This document shows, piece by piece, positions 7,122 through 33,504 of a stretch of DNA of 64,000 nucleotides. The notes below the pieces were generated by a model that was given only the letters and a program-made list of their open reading frames with translations, did no database searches and was not told the DNA's origin. This DNA comes from Octopus vulgaris. Lineage: Eukaryota. The position numbers and the translations under genes are program-made. The first letter of the stretch is position 1. The number at the start of each line of letters is the position of its first letter. The stretch is taken from positions 93,372,001 through 93,436,000 of the forward strand of contig OX597816.1 in the NCBI GenBank assembly GCA_951406725.2. Direction: 5' to 3'.

Positions 7122-8049
7122 AGTGTTGCCTACATTTTGCATGAGAATATCATGTGACTTAACTTGATAGTCACATAATGAAGACAGTTTAACATGGCAG
7201 CCCTTTTCTGTGTCAAAAAGGTGTTCTTTAATGATATCTGAGGTGAGTAGGACAGAAAAAAAGAAGCAAGGAACACCCAAAGATGAGAAAGAGAAAGCTG
7301 ACTGCTATCAGTGAGCCAAGATCCAACAATCTTGTACAAAAACTGTTACCAAATATTTCAAATAAATCTGGGTTATCAGTTATGTGTGAATCCATGTTTA
7401 AAGCAAGCAAAAAACAAAACAGGTATTTGAAGTGGGTAGGACAACTTCTATGATTGAAAACGACCACAAAACAAGAATCTGTGCGACTTCAGTTTTACTT
7501 CATTATTCAGTTGATAAAGGCCAGCTGAAGTAAGGGGTTATATGTAATTACTTTAATAAGCATTTTACTGTGGGATTCTGTTAATAGTTTTGAACAAGCT
7601 TATCTGTCCAGGGAAATAGATACAATCTTCCTTGCAATAGTAATTTCTTCTAAATGATGACTTGAAAGATATGATAATTTTTTAAGACTAAAGGGTGTTA
7701 TTTAATAGAAATTGGATCACTATTTCTAGCAGGTCAAACAGCCTCTTATATGCTTCAGTGTTGATCTATTTGGTAACGACCAGAAATGTAAGGTTGTTTC
7801 TGTACTCTTGTAAGTTAGTCAGTGAAATTATAATTTATTGTTGCTAACTTTACTGCTTTAATCATCATCCACTTTAGCACTACCTTCAAATGGCATTCAG
7901 TTACCTTTAGCAGAGCTCTCTCTCTGTTGCAAGCATTCAGGTCAGGTCTCAGGTTTAAGGATAACATTCTCTCTTCATCCACCAATCTAAGAGGCACTCA
8001 AAAAATCATGGATATTGTCCTTTTCCTTCAAAAATTTTTTTAAAAATTG

Positions 8050-8314
8050 GGATCTTTTCAGTTTGAAGGCCAGATTTTCTTAGTTAACTAAACAATTTGA
8101 AACTTCGTATACTGGTAGAATGTGTCAAAAGAAAACATAATTGTAAACCAAAATGAAAACGGAATTGTAATTTCTAAGTTTAACGTTGTTTAATAATTCG
8201 AATTTTAACCAATGATATTCTTTCTTTCGACCTCATATTATTTACTGCCTCTCAAAATATTGTTACTGTGACGTAAACAGCTATTTTGTGACGTAGTTAA
8301 CGTAAACATGTAAA
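8050..8314 (+). repeat. Left long terminal inverted repeat
   Basis: Reverse complement of 30514-30778, 256/265 identical by hand alignment; no nearer partner TIR seen. Confidence 0.92.
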
Positions 8315-8963
8315 CAGACCTACAGATTCGTTTGTAACGTAAACATCCGTTCATCGTAAATAGCTAAATTCGCTTGGCATCGTACACAGCTTTTTCAGTT
8401 CCCTAGAATTATATTTCAAAGAAAATAAAAAGAAAAAGATTCATACGCATAAATATCCATCCTTAGACATCAGAAAATGAGTGTTTAAATTATTTTCCAT
8501 TGTTTGCATTGCTTACACACACACACATACATACATACACACATACTAAAATTACATCGTTGGAGCAGTAATTTATTTATGTATTTTTTGTTATACAATT
8601 TATTTTAAAGCTGAATCCCTATCCTGCCATTAACCCCTTTCTTATAAAATAGTTGAAGAATCTGGGGTGTAGGTATTGGGCCAGTATTGGAACTTTTAAC
8701 TTCTTGCTCTCTATCTTATGATCTCCGAAATTTAAGAATCTTGTGTTAACTCGGCTCTTATTATTTACTCTGACTCTGCCACCACCTCAATGCAAAGACT
8801 ATCAATATCAGAATCATCTTCACAACCACCACTACAACCATTACTACAACCTCGAATGCCACCACCACAACCATCTTCTGCAACCACAACCCCAAGATCA
8901 ATACCAGCATCATATTCAAAATCACCAATTTCACCACCACTACACTCTGCAATGTCTTCAACT

Positions 8964-9145
8964 CTACCATCCATGAGACATCCTAACATAATCAATGCTA
9001 CTACTACTATCATCATCATTATCATCATCATCCACTGCCGCCACCACCACCACCACCTCTACAAAAACACCAACACTATAATTTCTGCCATCATACACAT
9101 CCACTGTCACCACTACACCACCACTGCCATGATAACCACATCTAC
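8964..9145 (+). repeat. Segment duplicated in inverted orientation at 29048-29236
   Basis: CTACCATCCATGAGACATCCTAACATAATCAATGC...GATAACCACATCTAC recurs as its reverse complement; differences are mostly microsatellite length. Confidence 0.92.
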
Positions 9146-9229
9146 CACCTCCAACACCATTGCCACCACTATCTATGAGACATCCTAAGTTAGAAACTAC
9201 TTTCACTTTCTAGTTGCTCTTTGAGTTTA

Positions 9230-29511: not shown

Positions 29512-30390
29512 AAAATGAGATAGGGGTTGAAAATTCAACCCACCATGGGATAACATATATCCAATATACTGCTAGATAGGTACCCAACAAGACTAATACA
29601 TAGATGTTAAAAATTGCCAAACAATCAGTTCATCTATTGTATTATATGGGTAAAGGTAATAATATTACCGTAAATTAATACTACAAAATTAGAAAATGGA
29701 GAAACATACTTAAATCAATAAAACATCAACTATCAGATGATACCCAATCAAAACTTTATTACACCATTACATATCAGTAAAGGCATTATACAAAATATAC
29801 AGTAAAGGTAAATAGACAAAGAGATATAAGTATAAAATTTCAAATATAATATGTAATTAAATCATATCTGACAGCTGTTTCGGCAGCAAGGGCAGTCATA
29901 CCTCATTTAACCTATAAGCCATAAAGGCAGGTATAAATGAGGCATTAACAAGGATGCCCCACGGCCTCATCAGAGAATTAAATTTGTTATAATTGTGAAA
30001 AAATTATTTTTCCATATACATATAAATATAAAAATATAAAAATGTAAAATATGAAAACTTATGCATAAACTTCATAATGCTACACTTGTATAATATAATA
30101 CTCATTGGTACAATAATGCAAGGTAAACAAAACAAAATAAAACAAAATATATATCAGTGTATATATTAATATTAATAAGCACAGTTATTATACATATTTG
30201 GCTAATAGTTTTAAAAAAACTAACACATAGGGAGATGAAAAATAATAATTAAAACCATGGTTCAGTTCATAAAATTATAAAGCTATAAAAGTCAATAAAA
30301 ATTTCTATTAATATTAATAATAATAATAATAATAATAATAATAGATACAGTTAAGTTTGCACCAAGTCCATCCTTTCAAGATCGAACTAA
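29512..30390 (-). mobile_element. Penelope-like non-coding terminal fragment in (TA)n; related piece at 12981-13172
   Basis: Contains a hammerhead; 29683-29850 matches 12981-13125 directly, and 29512-29556 is the reverse complement of about 13129-13172. Confidence 0.65.
29867..29976 (-). ncRNA. Type I minimal hammerhead ribozyme with long stem II
   Basis: UCU-CUGAUGA-GGC..(about 80-nt foldback)..GCC-GAAA-CAGCUG-UC|AGA; palindromic stem III, GUC triplet. Confidence 0.85.
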
Positions 30391-30513
30391 TAATATATAT
30401 ATATATATATATATATATATATATATATATATATATATATATATATATATGCATATGTTTGTATACATGTGTGTGTAGCTATTTAGGATCTAGTTAGCTA
30501 TTTTAGTTAGCTA

Positions 30514-30778
30514 TTTACATGTTTACGTTAACTACGTCACAAAATAGCTGTTTACGCCACAGTAACAATATTTTGAGAAGCAGTAAATAATATGAGGCCG
30601 AAAGAAAGAATATCATTGGTTAAAATTCGAATTATTAAACAACGTTAAACTTAGAAATTACAATTCCGTTTTCATTTTGGTTTACAATTATGTTTTCATT
30701 TGACACATTCTACCAGTATACGAAGTTTCAAATTGTTTAGTTGACTAGGAAAATCTGGCTTTCAAAAAGAAAAGATCC
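30514..30778 (-). repeat. Right long terminal inverted repeat
   Basis: Reverse complement of 8050-8314, followed directly by AAAAATTG. Confidence 0.92.
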
Positions 30779-33504
30779 AAAAATTGAATTATGATTTAGC
30801 AATATACCCACAAACCTCCATTGTAATAACATCCAAATAGCTAAGATGGATTACACTTTCACTTATCTCTATAATTATCTCTTTAATTTTATGATCTATA
30901 ATTCAATATCTAACTTCAATGGAGTAATGCTAATTTTATAACTGATTTAGTAATATGACAATAATCAATCTTCTTCAATAGTGAAATAATGAAGACTAAT
31001 ATACCACATAGGTTACAGTTTAATTCATCCCTATAATCATATATTTCTGTTGAAGGTTACAGAATAGCAGAAATGGTAGAGCAATATGTCTAAAAGCATT
31101 ATAATATTTGGTTTAAAATTTCTTTGTTCTGAATTGACTTTGAATTTTATCCTACCAACTCTAATAAAACAAATACCAGTTATATAAATTTATACCTATC
31201 AATTCTGAGATATCTTTCTCATCCTTGAAATATCCTTTATTCCTCTAAGTGTATAATTCCAGTTTATGGTTCTAATATCACTGACTATTTAGCAACATTT
31301 TAACCACAGAATTGTCCCAAAACTTATACTGACAAAATACTGAAGTACTTAAACTTTAACATGTAAGTAAAGTTTCTCTAAATTACTGATTGTCATATGT
31401 GGAAGAAAAGATTTGATTTAACTTAATGTTTAAAATATTACTAACCTTTATGGTTGTTGTATGTTAGAAATATACATAGCTTAAGGCACAGGCATGGCTG
31501 GTGTAGATGTGGCTGGGAAATCCTGAAGTTTGCTTTCCAATCACTTAGTTTCAGGTTCAATACCAATGCATAGCATCTTGGACAAATGTCTTCTACTCTA
31601 GCACAGGGTCAAACAATGCTTTGTGAAGAAATTTGATTAATGGAAACTGTAAGAAGCTTGCTATGTATAAATATGATGTGTGTGTGTGCGTGCATGTGTG
31701 TGTGTGCGCATGCACGCATGTGTGCATGTGTGTGTGTGTGCATGCAACAACATCTCAATATTGATAACCCACAGTTTTACTTGAGTCAAATGTTGATATA
31801 ATGTTTATGACCCTTATTGGCATTCTGACTATGCAGTGAAATTCAAATTTCTTGATTGAAGAAAAGGTAAAGGTTCAAGACAGGAAAAGCATCCAACAGT
31901 AAAATTCTGCCTAAAATATGACAGCATGGAAAAATAAACATTAACTAAACAAACCGAAAGTACAGAAATTTTTAAAGAAATTTTACAGAAGATAAAAAAA
32001 AATACAACATTAATGAAAATATCTTTCTGCTCTCTCTTTAAAATATTTGTAAAACATCTAAAATAAAGTGGAGCATTTCTGTGGTAACAGCTAAATATAG
32101 TTATACAACTTTCATTTTAAAAGAGTTGAGGTCAGAAGAATCATATCATAGACATTTGACTAAACAGAGCAGGAAGAAAAAGATTAGGTATGAAGAAGAA
32201 TGAGATAAAACAAAGTGGTTCTATAAAAATAGATGAGGCACTTAGCAATGCATCGGAAAGAAGATAAATAAATTATTTGTGTGAGTCAAAAGTCAATGCT
32301 ATTTAGAAGCCAAAAGATTTTCCACCCAAATCTCAATCCATTAAGGCTGACACAAACAAAAGAATATTTGTGATTCAATTGAAATTTAAACTATTTCCTC
32401 ATATAGCTTTCAAAAAGGCACGAATCAATTCTGATATTCTCAATATATCTGTCTGTTTAAATGTTTCAGTATATCTATGTAGCCATTTACATATGTATTG
32501 TGGCCTGTATGCTAGAATGAAGAAGTGTACCTGTGTGTGTGTGTGTGTGTCTGTGTGTGTGTGTCTGTGTGAGTGTGTGTGTTTGTGCACGTGTGTAGAT
32601 GCATACATACATATATATAGGAAGTAAGCTCAAACATGCATTCGCTTATGAACATAAGTACGTATATATGCTTAATGTATGTACATATACACACACACAT
32701 ATATACACACACATACATACATATATATATATATATACACACACACACAAATATCTTCATGCATATTATGTTATATCATCATCATCATCATCATACTCAT
32801 CATCATTTTACGTCCTTCTTCTAGGCTGATATGGGTTGGATGGTTTGACAGGATTCAAAATGCTGAAGGATTGCTTTGAGCTCCAACATCTGCTTTAGCA
32901 TAGTTTCTACTGTTGTATGCCCTTCCTAGTGCCAACCACTTTACATGTACTGAAAGTTAGTGTTTTTCTTCATTTTGTGACACATTAACATGAACAATTA
33001 ATTTAGTTTCCGAAAATTATTGAGAATTTTACATAATTGGGATACCTCCACAAATTACCTTTCTTCTTTCACACTAAATATTCATATTATATAATAATTT
33101 TTCCACAGATACTCTTGGACTTATGTATGAATAGTTACTTCAGGAATGAGCTGCTGATGCACTAATCTGGACTTCTCCATATAATATTTTCATTATATTC
33201 TAATCAAAGATGGTGAGCTGGCAGAATCATATTTGCACACTAGATAAAATTCTTATTTTAAAGTCTGGTACTTACTCTACTGATCGCTTTTGCCAAACTG
33301 TTAAGTCATAGAAACATAAACAAACCAACACCATTTGTCAAGAGGTGGTGTGGGGCAAACTCAAACACTAAGACACATACATAGATATAAATATATATAA
33401 ATACATATAAATATATAGATATAAATACATACATACATACATACATACATACATACATACATACATACATACATACATATATACATACATACATACATAT
33501 ATAC

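What the first reader, a model, noticed from the sequence alone, without database searches (positions are those of the whole stretch)
8042..30786. 22.7-kb macro-transposon: long TIRs plus an exact 8-bp TSD enclosing a third of the window
Seen: 265-bp inverted repeats (9 mismatches) at 8050-8314 and 30514-30778, each abutting AAAAATTG. The left TIR has no nearer partner, and no cognate transposase is visible inside. The interior contains unique DNA, a promoter-like patch, SINEs, Helitrons, an RTE and the Tx1 pair. Known: long GG-starting TIRs with 8-11-bp TSDs are typical of Mutator-like elements, and Pack-MULEs capture host DNA, though usually only a few kb. Inference: MITE-type ends mobilised or captured a >20-kb genomic block, a potential mechanism for large-scale rearrangement. 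Part of the length (e.g. the 7-kb Tx1 pair) may have inserted later.
Basis: partly seen in the sequence, partly recalled or inferred. Interest (0 to 1): 0.8.

Follow-up and report, generated by a model that had tools for sequence, protein, structure and literature searches.

The report
Giant gene-less octopus DNA transposon family
This 22.7-kb stretch has matching inverted ends and a duplicated 8-base target site, and the part of its inside that was tested recurs at tens of times the depth of its flank, so it is likely one copy of a young family of unusually large, gene-less jumping DNA in what is probably an octopus, not a one-off captured block.

Summary
The ends are as described: 265-bp TIRs with 9 mismatches, GG...CC termini and an exact AAAAATTG on both sides. 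The "unique" interior is not unique where tested. In three public DNA runs, contigs over 8552-10641 lie at 22-76x, 25-70x and 109-203x the depth of the left-flank contigs and differ from this copy by only 0.3-0.9%. Some copies lack the nested Helitron. Best reading (0.6): one member of a young, multicopy, non-autonomous cut-and-paste family, about 15 kb without two probably later insertions, moved by a transposase supplied in trans. Merlin (GG, 8 bp) fits at least as well as Mutator; no cognate transposase was found. Main rival (0.27): a composite unit, in which a multicopy left element plus host DNA plus a 2-kb right element (a third, diverged end lies at 28726) moved by its outer ends. Only 3.5 of 22.7 kb was laid on reads, and no empty site was seen. 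A new variant of a known kind, larger than the animal Pack-TIR survey's 5-kb limit.

The parts
8042..8049 (+). Left target-site duplication AAAAATTG
8050..8314 (+). Left TIR, 265 bp, starts GGATC; inner part carries repeated GTAAACA/GTGACGT words
   Evidence: summed contig depth in 8156-8343 is 760-1,750x the flank
8315..10641 (+). Multicopy family interior (tested part), non-coding
   Evidence: contigs at 22-203x flank depth with 0-4 differences each; no Pfam family at cut-off
8959..9146 (+). Module X, repeated inverted at 29047-29241 (183 matches, 3 mismatches, gaps aside)
9230..9599 (+). Nested Helitron-like element (TC...CTTG, between A and T; label inferred), absent from some family copies
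   Evidence: joints 9229->9600 and 9226->9603; borders
10749..11348 (.). The 'promoter-like patch': multicopy, TG...CA ends inside (TA)n, probable solo LTR (inferred)
   Evidence: summed depth 12,867-26,164 in X4 over 10788-11351
11481..12593 (.). Internal element with ~50-bp inverted ends (86%), followed by a 117-bp palindrome at 12615-12731
13126..13193 (+). Module Z, repeated inverted at 29491-29558 (98.5%)
16942..19638 (-).
   Evidence: RVT_1 E 1.2e-21
20331..22185 (+). First LINE of the pair (ORF1 with zinc knuckle only), after target CGATAGGA at 20323
22194..27421 (+). Second LINE (ORF1; endonuclease, RT and zf-RVT in three pieces; Tx1 label recalled), CGATAGGA at 22186 and 27422
   Evidence: best named relative Argonauta hians, 62%
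27660..28417 (.). Mariner-like remnant (minus strand; motif recalled, no Pfam hit) followed by a Helitron piece with Pif1 2B domain and 3' hairpin + CTAG
28726..29045 (+). Third, diverged end of the same TIR family (GGATCTTT...), interrupted by a SINE-like piece; its flank AATATAAG does not match the TSD
29241..30513 (.). AT-rich, CpG-poor segment (o/e 0.22), copy number untested
30514..30778 (-). Right TIR, 265 bp, ends ...GATCC
30779..30786 (+). Right target-site duplication AAAAATTG

Best explanation
The 22.7-kb unit has paired 265-bp GG-ended inverted repeats, an exact 8-bp target duplication and a left interior that recurs at high depth, and is likely one copy of a young family of large, gene-less cut-and-paste transposons moved by a transposase encoded elsewhere, probably of the Merlin or Mutator type. 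Shown: the ends, the TSD, the multicopy state of 8315-10641, copies without the Helitron, and no cognate transposase inside. Inferred, step 1: an ancestral small element of this TIR family grew by taking in host DNA and older transposon debris, including a stray family end at 28726. Inferred, step 2: the enlarged element (about 15 kb without the LINE pair and the Helitron) stayed a transposase substrate and spread to tens of copies, with deletion derivatives, within roughly the last 1-3 million years. Inferred, step 3: this copy landed in an A/T-rich 8-mer in a CpG-poor, probably methylated intron. Step 4: it then gained the Helitron (shown relative to some copies) and the LINE pair (inferred). 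My odds for the mobiliser: Merlin 0.5, Mutator 0.4, other 0.1.
For: TIR pair and exact TSD. The chance of an unrelated facing pair within 25 kb that also shares an exact 8-mer is about 1e-4 to 1e-3 genome-wide for 760-1,750 ends, assuming a 2.8-Gb genome. Flank contigs have depth 18.7, 8.71 and 4.3-5.6; interior contigs 418-1,412, 214-607 and 516-959. That is 22-76x, 25-70x and 109-203x, with 11/1211, 6/880 and 4/1215 differences. Overlapping contigs and joints carry the multicopy interior to at least 10641. Helitron-less joints occur in 4 of 4 runs; joints 8308->8474/8475 in X8 are consistent with internally deleted copies. The X4 flank contig runs 24 bases into the TIR with no mismatch gap, whereas an empty allele would match only 6 of those 24. 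The multicopy left interior has no other right end in the window. Interior 8315-20330 is far richer in CpG than the left flank (Fisher p 2e-32). Merlin: TIR 24-462 bp, 5'-GG, 8-9-bp TSD; 191 sequences in O. bimaculoides. Zebrafish Merlin consensus sequences reach at least 10.3 and 13.6 kb.
Against: Only 8050-11520 (3,471 of 22,729 bases) was laid on reads; the middle and right end were not. No second full-length copy and no empty site was seen; only 24 of 1,665 loose ends, 15 of 64 joints and 32 of 62,657 pieces were shown. The tool warns that contig depth is no copy number; a heterozygous or low-coverage flank would inflate the ratios, most in X8. Depth falls from 76x to 22x along the interior in X4, so many copies may be shorter. 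The 24-base junction overlap is below the tool's 31-base bridging rule. The CpG change points (9184-9336 and 28905-29319) lie inside the TIRs, and the 0.9-1.3 kb next to each TIR is not significantly different from the flank (p 0.18 and 0.73). The TIRs differ by 3.4%, more than the interior differs from its relatives. The third end at 28726 fits the composite rival. Helitron-less joints account for 697 of 1,049 depth in X4 but only 131 of 346 in X7 and 194 of 719 in X8.
Confidence: 0.6

Rival explanations
1. Composite macro-transposon: a multicopy left element of at least 2.6 kb, a once-captured block of host DNA, and a 2,053-bp right element (28726-30778, read on the minus strand as TIR - AT-rich DNA - X - diverged end) were moved together by their two outer ends, as with maize Ac macrotransposons.
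For: An inner family end at 28726 whose flank does not match the outer TSD. X lies in both arms in inverted orientation at 98%. CpG-poor inner segments (16650-16940 o/e 0.36, 19790-20160 0.30, 29241-30513 0.22) resemble the flanks. Ac macrotransposons of 10.3 and 28 kb excise and reinsert (PMC9910405).
Against: No inner right-hand end for the left element. CpG poverty does not mean single copy: 8552-9229 has o/e 0.26 yet is at 70-200x depth. Plant MULEs with an extra internal solo TIR and one outer TSD are described as single elements (PMC3310237).
Confidence: 0.27
2. Two unrelated ends face each other across native host DNA, and the A-rich 8-mer match is chance or follows from target preference.
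For: The TIR family is abundant (760-1,750x flank depth) and the word is A/T-rich (11 occurrences on the + strand of the window). If all ~14,000 related ends counted, the genome-wide expectation rises to 0.04-0.07. 29241-30513 is as CpG-poor as the right flank.
Against: The left end carries a multicopy interior and has no other partner. The two ends are 96.6% identical over 265 bp, whereas contigs of the very abundant relative leave the alignment at 8081-8085 and 8125. The expectation is 1e-4 to 1e-3 for this subfamily.
Confidence: 0.08
3. Assembly artefact: reads from different copies of the family were stitched together at this locus.
Against: The window has no N. The TSD matches across 22.7 kb, which a misjoin would not produce. 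The X4 contig runs from the flank into the left TIR.
Confidence: 0.05

Closest known systems
Merlin (IS1016/IS1595-related) DNA transposons and their non-autonomous derivatives (PMC8101967: passages, supplement search, S1 Table part 1 of 2)
   Same: 5'-GG ends, 8-bp TSD, TIR within 24-462 bp; internal microsatellites; long members exist (Merlin-1_DR at least 10.3 kb, Merlin-2_DR at least 13.6 kb, from repeat coordinates in S1 Table); reported as abundant in O. bimaculoides; 18 families in O. vulgaris, 2 of them recently active (PMC13282606).
   Different: No DDE_Tnp_IS1595 domain inside; those two long zebrafish members carry the domain. Link of these TIRs to a Merlin transposase is untested. 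Recently active O. vulgaris Merlin insertions average about 2.6 kb (28,998 bp over 11).
Mutator-like elements, Pack-MULEs and MULEs with an extra solo TIR (PMC6446971, PMC3310237: passages)
   Same: Long TIR (14-500 bp), TSD within 8-11 bp, uptake of foreign DNA, an extra internal end with no TSD of its own; Mutator covers 13.9 Mb in O. vulgaris.
   Different: No MULE transposase; no donor gene fragment identified; in tomato, elements with a solo TIR almost never have a second copy.
Animal Pack-TIRs (PMC8277862: passages, sections 10 and 14)
   Same: A TIR pair around non-transposase DNA; multicopy cases spread by repeated transposition.
   Different: Median captured length 224 bp; the search was limited to under 5,000 bp; four of 281 plotted cases are multicopy. 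Here the interior is 22 kb (about 15 kb without two probably later insertions), and no parental locus is known.
Maize Ac macrotransposons (PMC9910405: passages)
   Same: 10-28-kb units bounded by transposon ends, with an 8-bp TSD.
   Different: They are hAT elements, arose in breeding stocks and are built from two Ac/fAc elements; here the ends start GG and at least the left interior is an amplified family.

Membership tests
Merlin | 5'-GG terminal dinucleotide | tested here: met
   GGATC...GATCC; definition
Merlin | 8- or 9-bp TSD | tested here: met
   8 bp, one locus only
Merlin | TIR 24-462 bp | tested here: met
   265 bp
Merlin | DDE_Tnp_IS1595 transposase in the element or in an autonomous partner with the same TIRs | tested here: inconclusive
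   None inside; a partner cannot be sought because no genome is held
Mutator-like (MULE) | TSD 8-11 bp and long TIR | tested here: met
   8 bp and 265 bp; definition
Mutator-like (MULE) | MULE transposase in the element or a partner | tested here: inconclusive
   None inside; partner not searchable
Pack-TIR / Pack-MULE | Interior copied from an identifiable non-TE parental locus | not testable with these tools
   No genome held; DNA pattern scans of prokaryote, viral and metagenome sets were blank
Pack-TIR / Pack-MULE | Multiple copies with distinct TSDs (multicopy class) | tested here: inconclusive
   Left interior multicopy; TSDs of other copies not seen
Composite macrotransposon | Two element units with inner ends retained, outer ends sharing one TSD | tested here: inconclusive
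   One inner end at 28726, none for the left unit
Composite macrotransposon | Single-copy host DNA between the units | not tested
Polinton/Maverick | Protein-primed PolB and integrase genes (passages); 6-bp TSD (recalled) | tested here: not met
   No such Pfam family; TSD is 8 bp

The most novel reading that the evidence does not exclude
Octopus genomes hold a recently amplified family of gene-less TIR transposons about 15 kb or more long, in tens to over a hundred copies. The family carries a mosaic of captured gene-body DNA and older transposon debris as fixed cargo. It would be a natural animal multicopy Pack-type element several times longer than the 5-kb limit of the animal survey, showing that a Merlin- or Mutator-type transposase moves such cargo repeatedly in a germline.
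Probability: 0.5. Interest if true: 0.66.

Novelty: new variant of a known kind. Interest (0 to 1): 0.5.

Why it matters
Transposition efficiency is held to fall with distance between TIRs (PMC6431247, passages), and the animal Pack-TIR survey did not look beyond 5 kb (10 kb in human). A young family of about 15-kb gene-less elements would be an exception that repeat pipelines would tend to split into its nested SINE, LINE and Helitron parts (inference). Tens of near-identical multi-kilobase copies are also substrates for ectopic recombination and assembly collapse, relevant to the genome reshuffling discussed for cephalopods. If the composite rival holds, it is instead a natural animal macro-transposition event. 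Neither case is a new mechanism.

Tried and rejected
Host promoter and first exon. A minus-strand ATG near 11066 with a GTAAG donor and NRF1/ETS/YY1-like words (labels recalled) first suggested a host gene. Rejected: the patch is multicopy in all DNA runs and has LTR-like ends; no splice joint was listed. Expression: no RNA holder listed; X17 is RNA only by guess, so nothing is concluded. Sharp CpG borders at the TIRs: not found. Whole-genome pairing of TIRs by TSD: no genome held. Pattern scans: TIR core in metagenome contigs; shared subterminal motif in metagenome, viral and prokaryote genome contigs; all blank, as expected for animal DNA. Rfam at E up to 0.5: 35 matches, all miRNA models below their gathering scores and mostly on microsatellites. 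Earlier-findings look-ups by sequence, place and words were blank; one search listed other genomes only. GGATCTTT in the Merlin paper's supplements: 24 occurrences; the 4 passages shown were internal matches in other organisms.
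Full report
1. Observation. The two arms are 265 bp with 9 mismatches and form the longest inverted repeat in the window. AAAAATTG abuts both ends and is the longest exact flanking repeat over shifts of plus or minus 3 and lengths 2-15. Its chance per pair is about 1e-4. The element spans 8050-30778, 22,729 bp, and reads GGATC...GATCC. A profile built from the ends finds three ends in the window and nothing else below E 0.3: 8050, 30778 and a diverged one at 28726. 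No transposase family was hit in 83 of 86 interior ORFs or in 18 read-through frames; the only interior non-LINE hit at cut-off is a Helitron Pif1 2B domain. The read-through did not cover 16523-20330, which is mostly LINE and SINE. A mariner-like remnant near 27700-27860 is recognised from recall only and is not cognate.

2. Organism. No genome is held. The SINEs look octopus-like (recalled), and the best named relative of the LINE reverse transcriptase is from Argonauta hians at 62% (120 of 1,104 hits listed, most unnamed). Octopod origin is probable, not shown. Literature on Octopus is used on that assumption.

3. The decisive test. Twenty of 24 listed runs hold part of 5900-11520; the best share is 0.71. 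Four were laid: X4, X7, X8 (DNA or unlabelled; organisms A, C, D) and X17 (RNA by guess; organism B). Left-flank contigs have depth 18.7 (6654-8073), 8.71 (6739-7957) and 4.3-5.6. Contigs over the supposedly unique interior have depth 1,412, 1,049, 539 and 418 in X4; 607, 313 and 214 in X7; and 959, 719, 719, 522 and 516 in X8. The ratios are 22-76, 25-70 and 109-203; differences from this copy are 11/1211, 6/880 and 4/1215, similar to flank differences of 0.35-0.7%. The tool cautions that depth is no copy number, and a heterozygous or thin flank would inflate ratios; halving still leaves 11 or more. The inner TIR is at 760-1,750x. A far more abundant relative shares about 8081-8125 (loose ends there; bin depth 257,465 in X4). 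Joints 9229->9600 and 9226->9603 show copies without the 370-bp Helitron in all four runs (697 of 1,049 depth in X4, 131 of 346 in X7, 194 of 719 in X8). Joints 8308->8474/8475 in X8 suggest deletion derivatives. The X4 flank contig continues 24 bases into the TIR; an empty allele would match 6 of 24. This is below the tool's 31-base bridging rule. One TIR mismatch (8080) is peculiar to this copy: all X4 depth there reads the other letter. No empty site was listed, but only 24 of 1,665 loose ends were shown. The tested interior is 3,471 of 22,729 bases.

4. Anatomy. Nested parts with their own borders are the Helitron (9230-9599), a probable solo LTR in (TA)n (10749-11348, the 'promoter patch', multicopy), a broken LINE (16942-19638), two LINEs in tandem at a thrice-repeated target CGATAGGA (20323, 22186, 27422) and a Helitron piece ending at 28417. 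Removing the LINE pair and the first Helitron leaves 15,260 bp; removing all six listed pieces leaves 9,790 bp. The third end at 28726 (score 95 against a random maximum of 50) is followed by an inverted copy of module X (183 matches, 3 mismatches); module Z is likewise shared between the arms. CpG o/e is 0.17 and 0.20 in the flanks and 0.79 inside. In octopus, methylation marks gene bodies and spares transposons (PMC9476566, passages), so the insertion site is probably an intron of a methylated gene (inference; no exon identified). Against my reading, the CpG change points fall about 0.9-1.6 kb inside the TIRs, and the segments next to each TIR do not differ from the flanks (p 0.18 and 0.73). 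But 8552-9229 is CpG-poor (0.26) and multicopy, so CpG-poor DNA can be family cargo; I read it as old gene-body DNA taken in before amplification (inference).

5. Mechanism. Best (0.6): a large non-autonomous TIR element, built by accretion, amplified in trans and later hit by nested insertions. At 0.0036 substitutions per site per million years (PMC13282606), 0.3-0.9% from relatives gives about 1-2.5 million years and the TIR difference gives 4.8; both are rough. Rivals: composite macro-transposon (0.27), chance pairing (0.08; expectation 1e-4 to 1e-3 for this subfamily, up to 0.07 if all relatives count), misassembly (0.05).

6. Comparison. Merlin is defined by GG ends, 24-462-bp TIRs and 8-9-bp TSDs, and 191 sequences were found in O. 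bimaculoides (PMC8101967). Two zebrafish Merlin consensus sequences exceed 10 and 13 kb. MULEs have 8-11-bp TSDs and 14-500-bp TIRs (PMC6446971), and plant MULEs with an internal solo TIR are described (PMC3310237). In O. vulgaris, Mutator covers 13.9 Mb, unclassified TIR 12.4 Mb and Merlin 2.2 Mb (PMC13282606; main text parts 1-2 of 3 and supplement rows). The element therefore works like a Merlin or MULE derivative; membership stays open until a transposase with these ends is found. Animal Pack-TIRs have a median of 224 bp and were searched below 5 kb (PMC8277862). Maize macrotransposons of 10-28 kb move (PMC9910405).

7. Novelty. Searches listed no description of a gene-less TIR family over 10 kb in octopus. 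I read only the papers named above; subscription papers, Repbase and the Zenodo repeat library were not visible and may hold it. Verdict: a real element and a new variant of a known kind; interest 0.5, rising to about 0.66 if the whole interior proves multicopy.

Noticed in passing
window 20323-27429: Two different LINEs (ORF1 DNA 72% identical) sit in tandem at the same target CGATAGGA. Tx1-clade elements that target non-autonomous DNA transposons are known (PMC4494074, passages); whether this target is part of the giant family is untested.
   Followed up: partly
window 27349-27421 and 14430-14495: The LINE 3' tail aligns with the 3' tail of the SINE at 14271-14495, suggesting a SINE-LINE partnership.
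   Followed up: partly
window 8081-8125: A very abundant relative of this TIR (bin depth 257,465 in X4, about 14,000x flank) shares this subterminal stretch; its loose ends resemble the third end at 28726.
   Followed up: no
window 16571-16934 and 19711-20069: CpG-poor SINE-like copies on both sides of the broken LINE (84%), with a 78-bp repeat directly flanking it (95%).
   Followed up: partly
window 12980-13122 and 29682-29838: Direct 83% repeat shared by the two arms, next to module Z; Penelope-like by recall.
   Followed up: no
window 12615-12731, 13718-13910, 33500-33737: Three short palindromic MITE-like elements.
   Followed up: no
window 49700-51600: Broken Helitron remnant outside the element (Helitron_like_N, E 6e-18), locally CpG-richer than its surroundings.
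   Followed up: no
window 42400-45900 and 59600-60750: A second LINE with long ORFs and a degraded Tc1-like element (recognised from recall) in the right flank.
   Followed up: no
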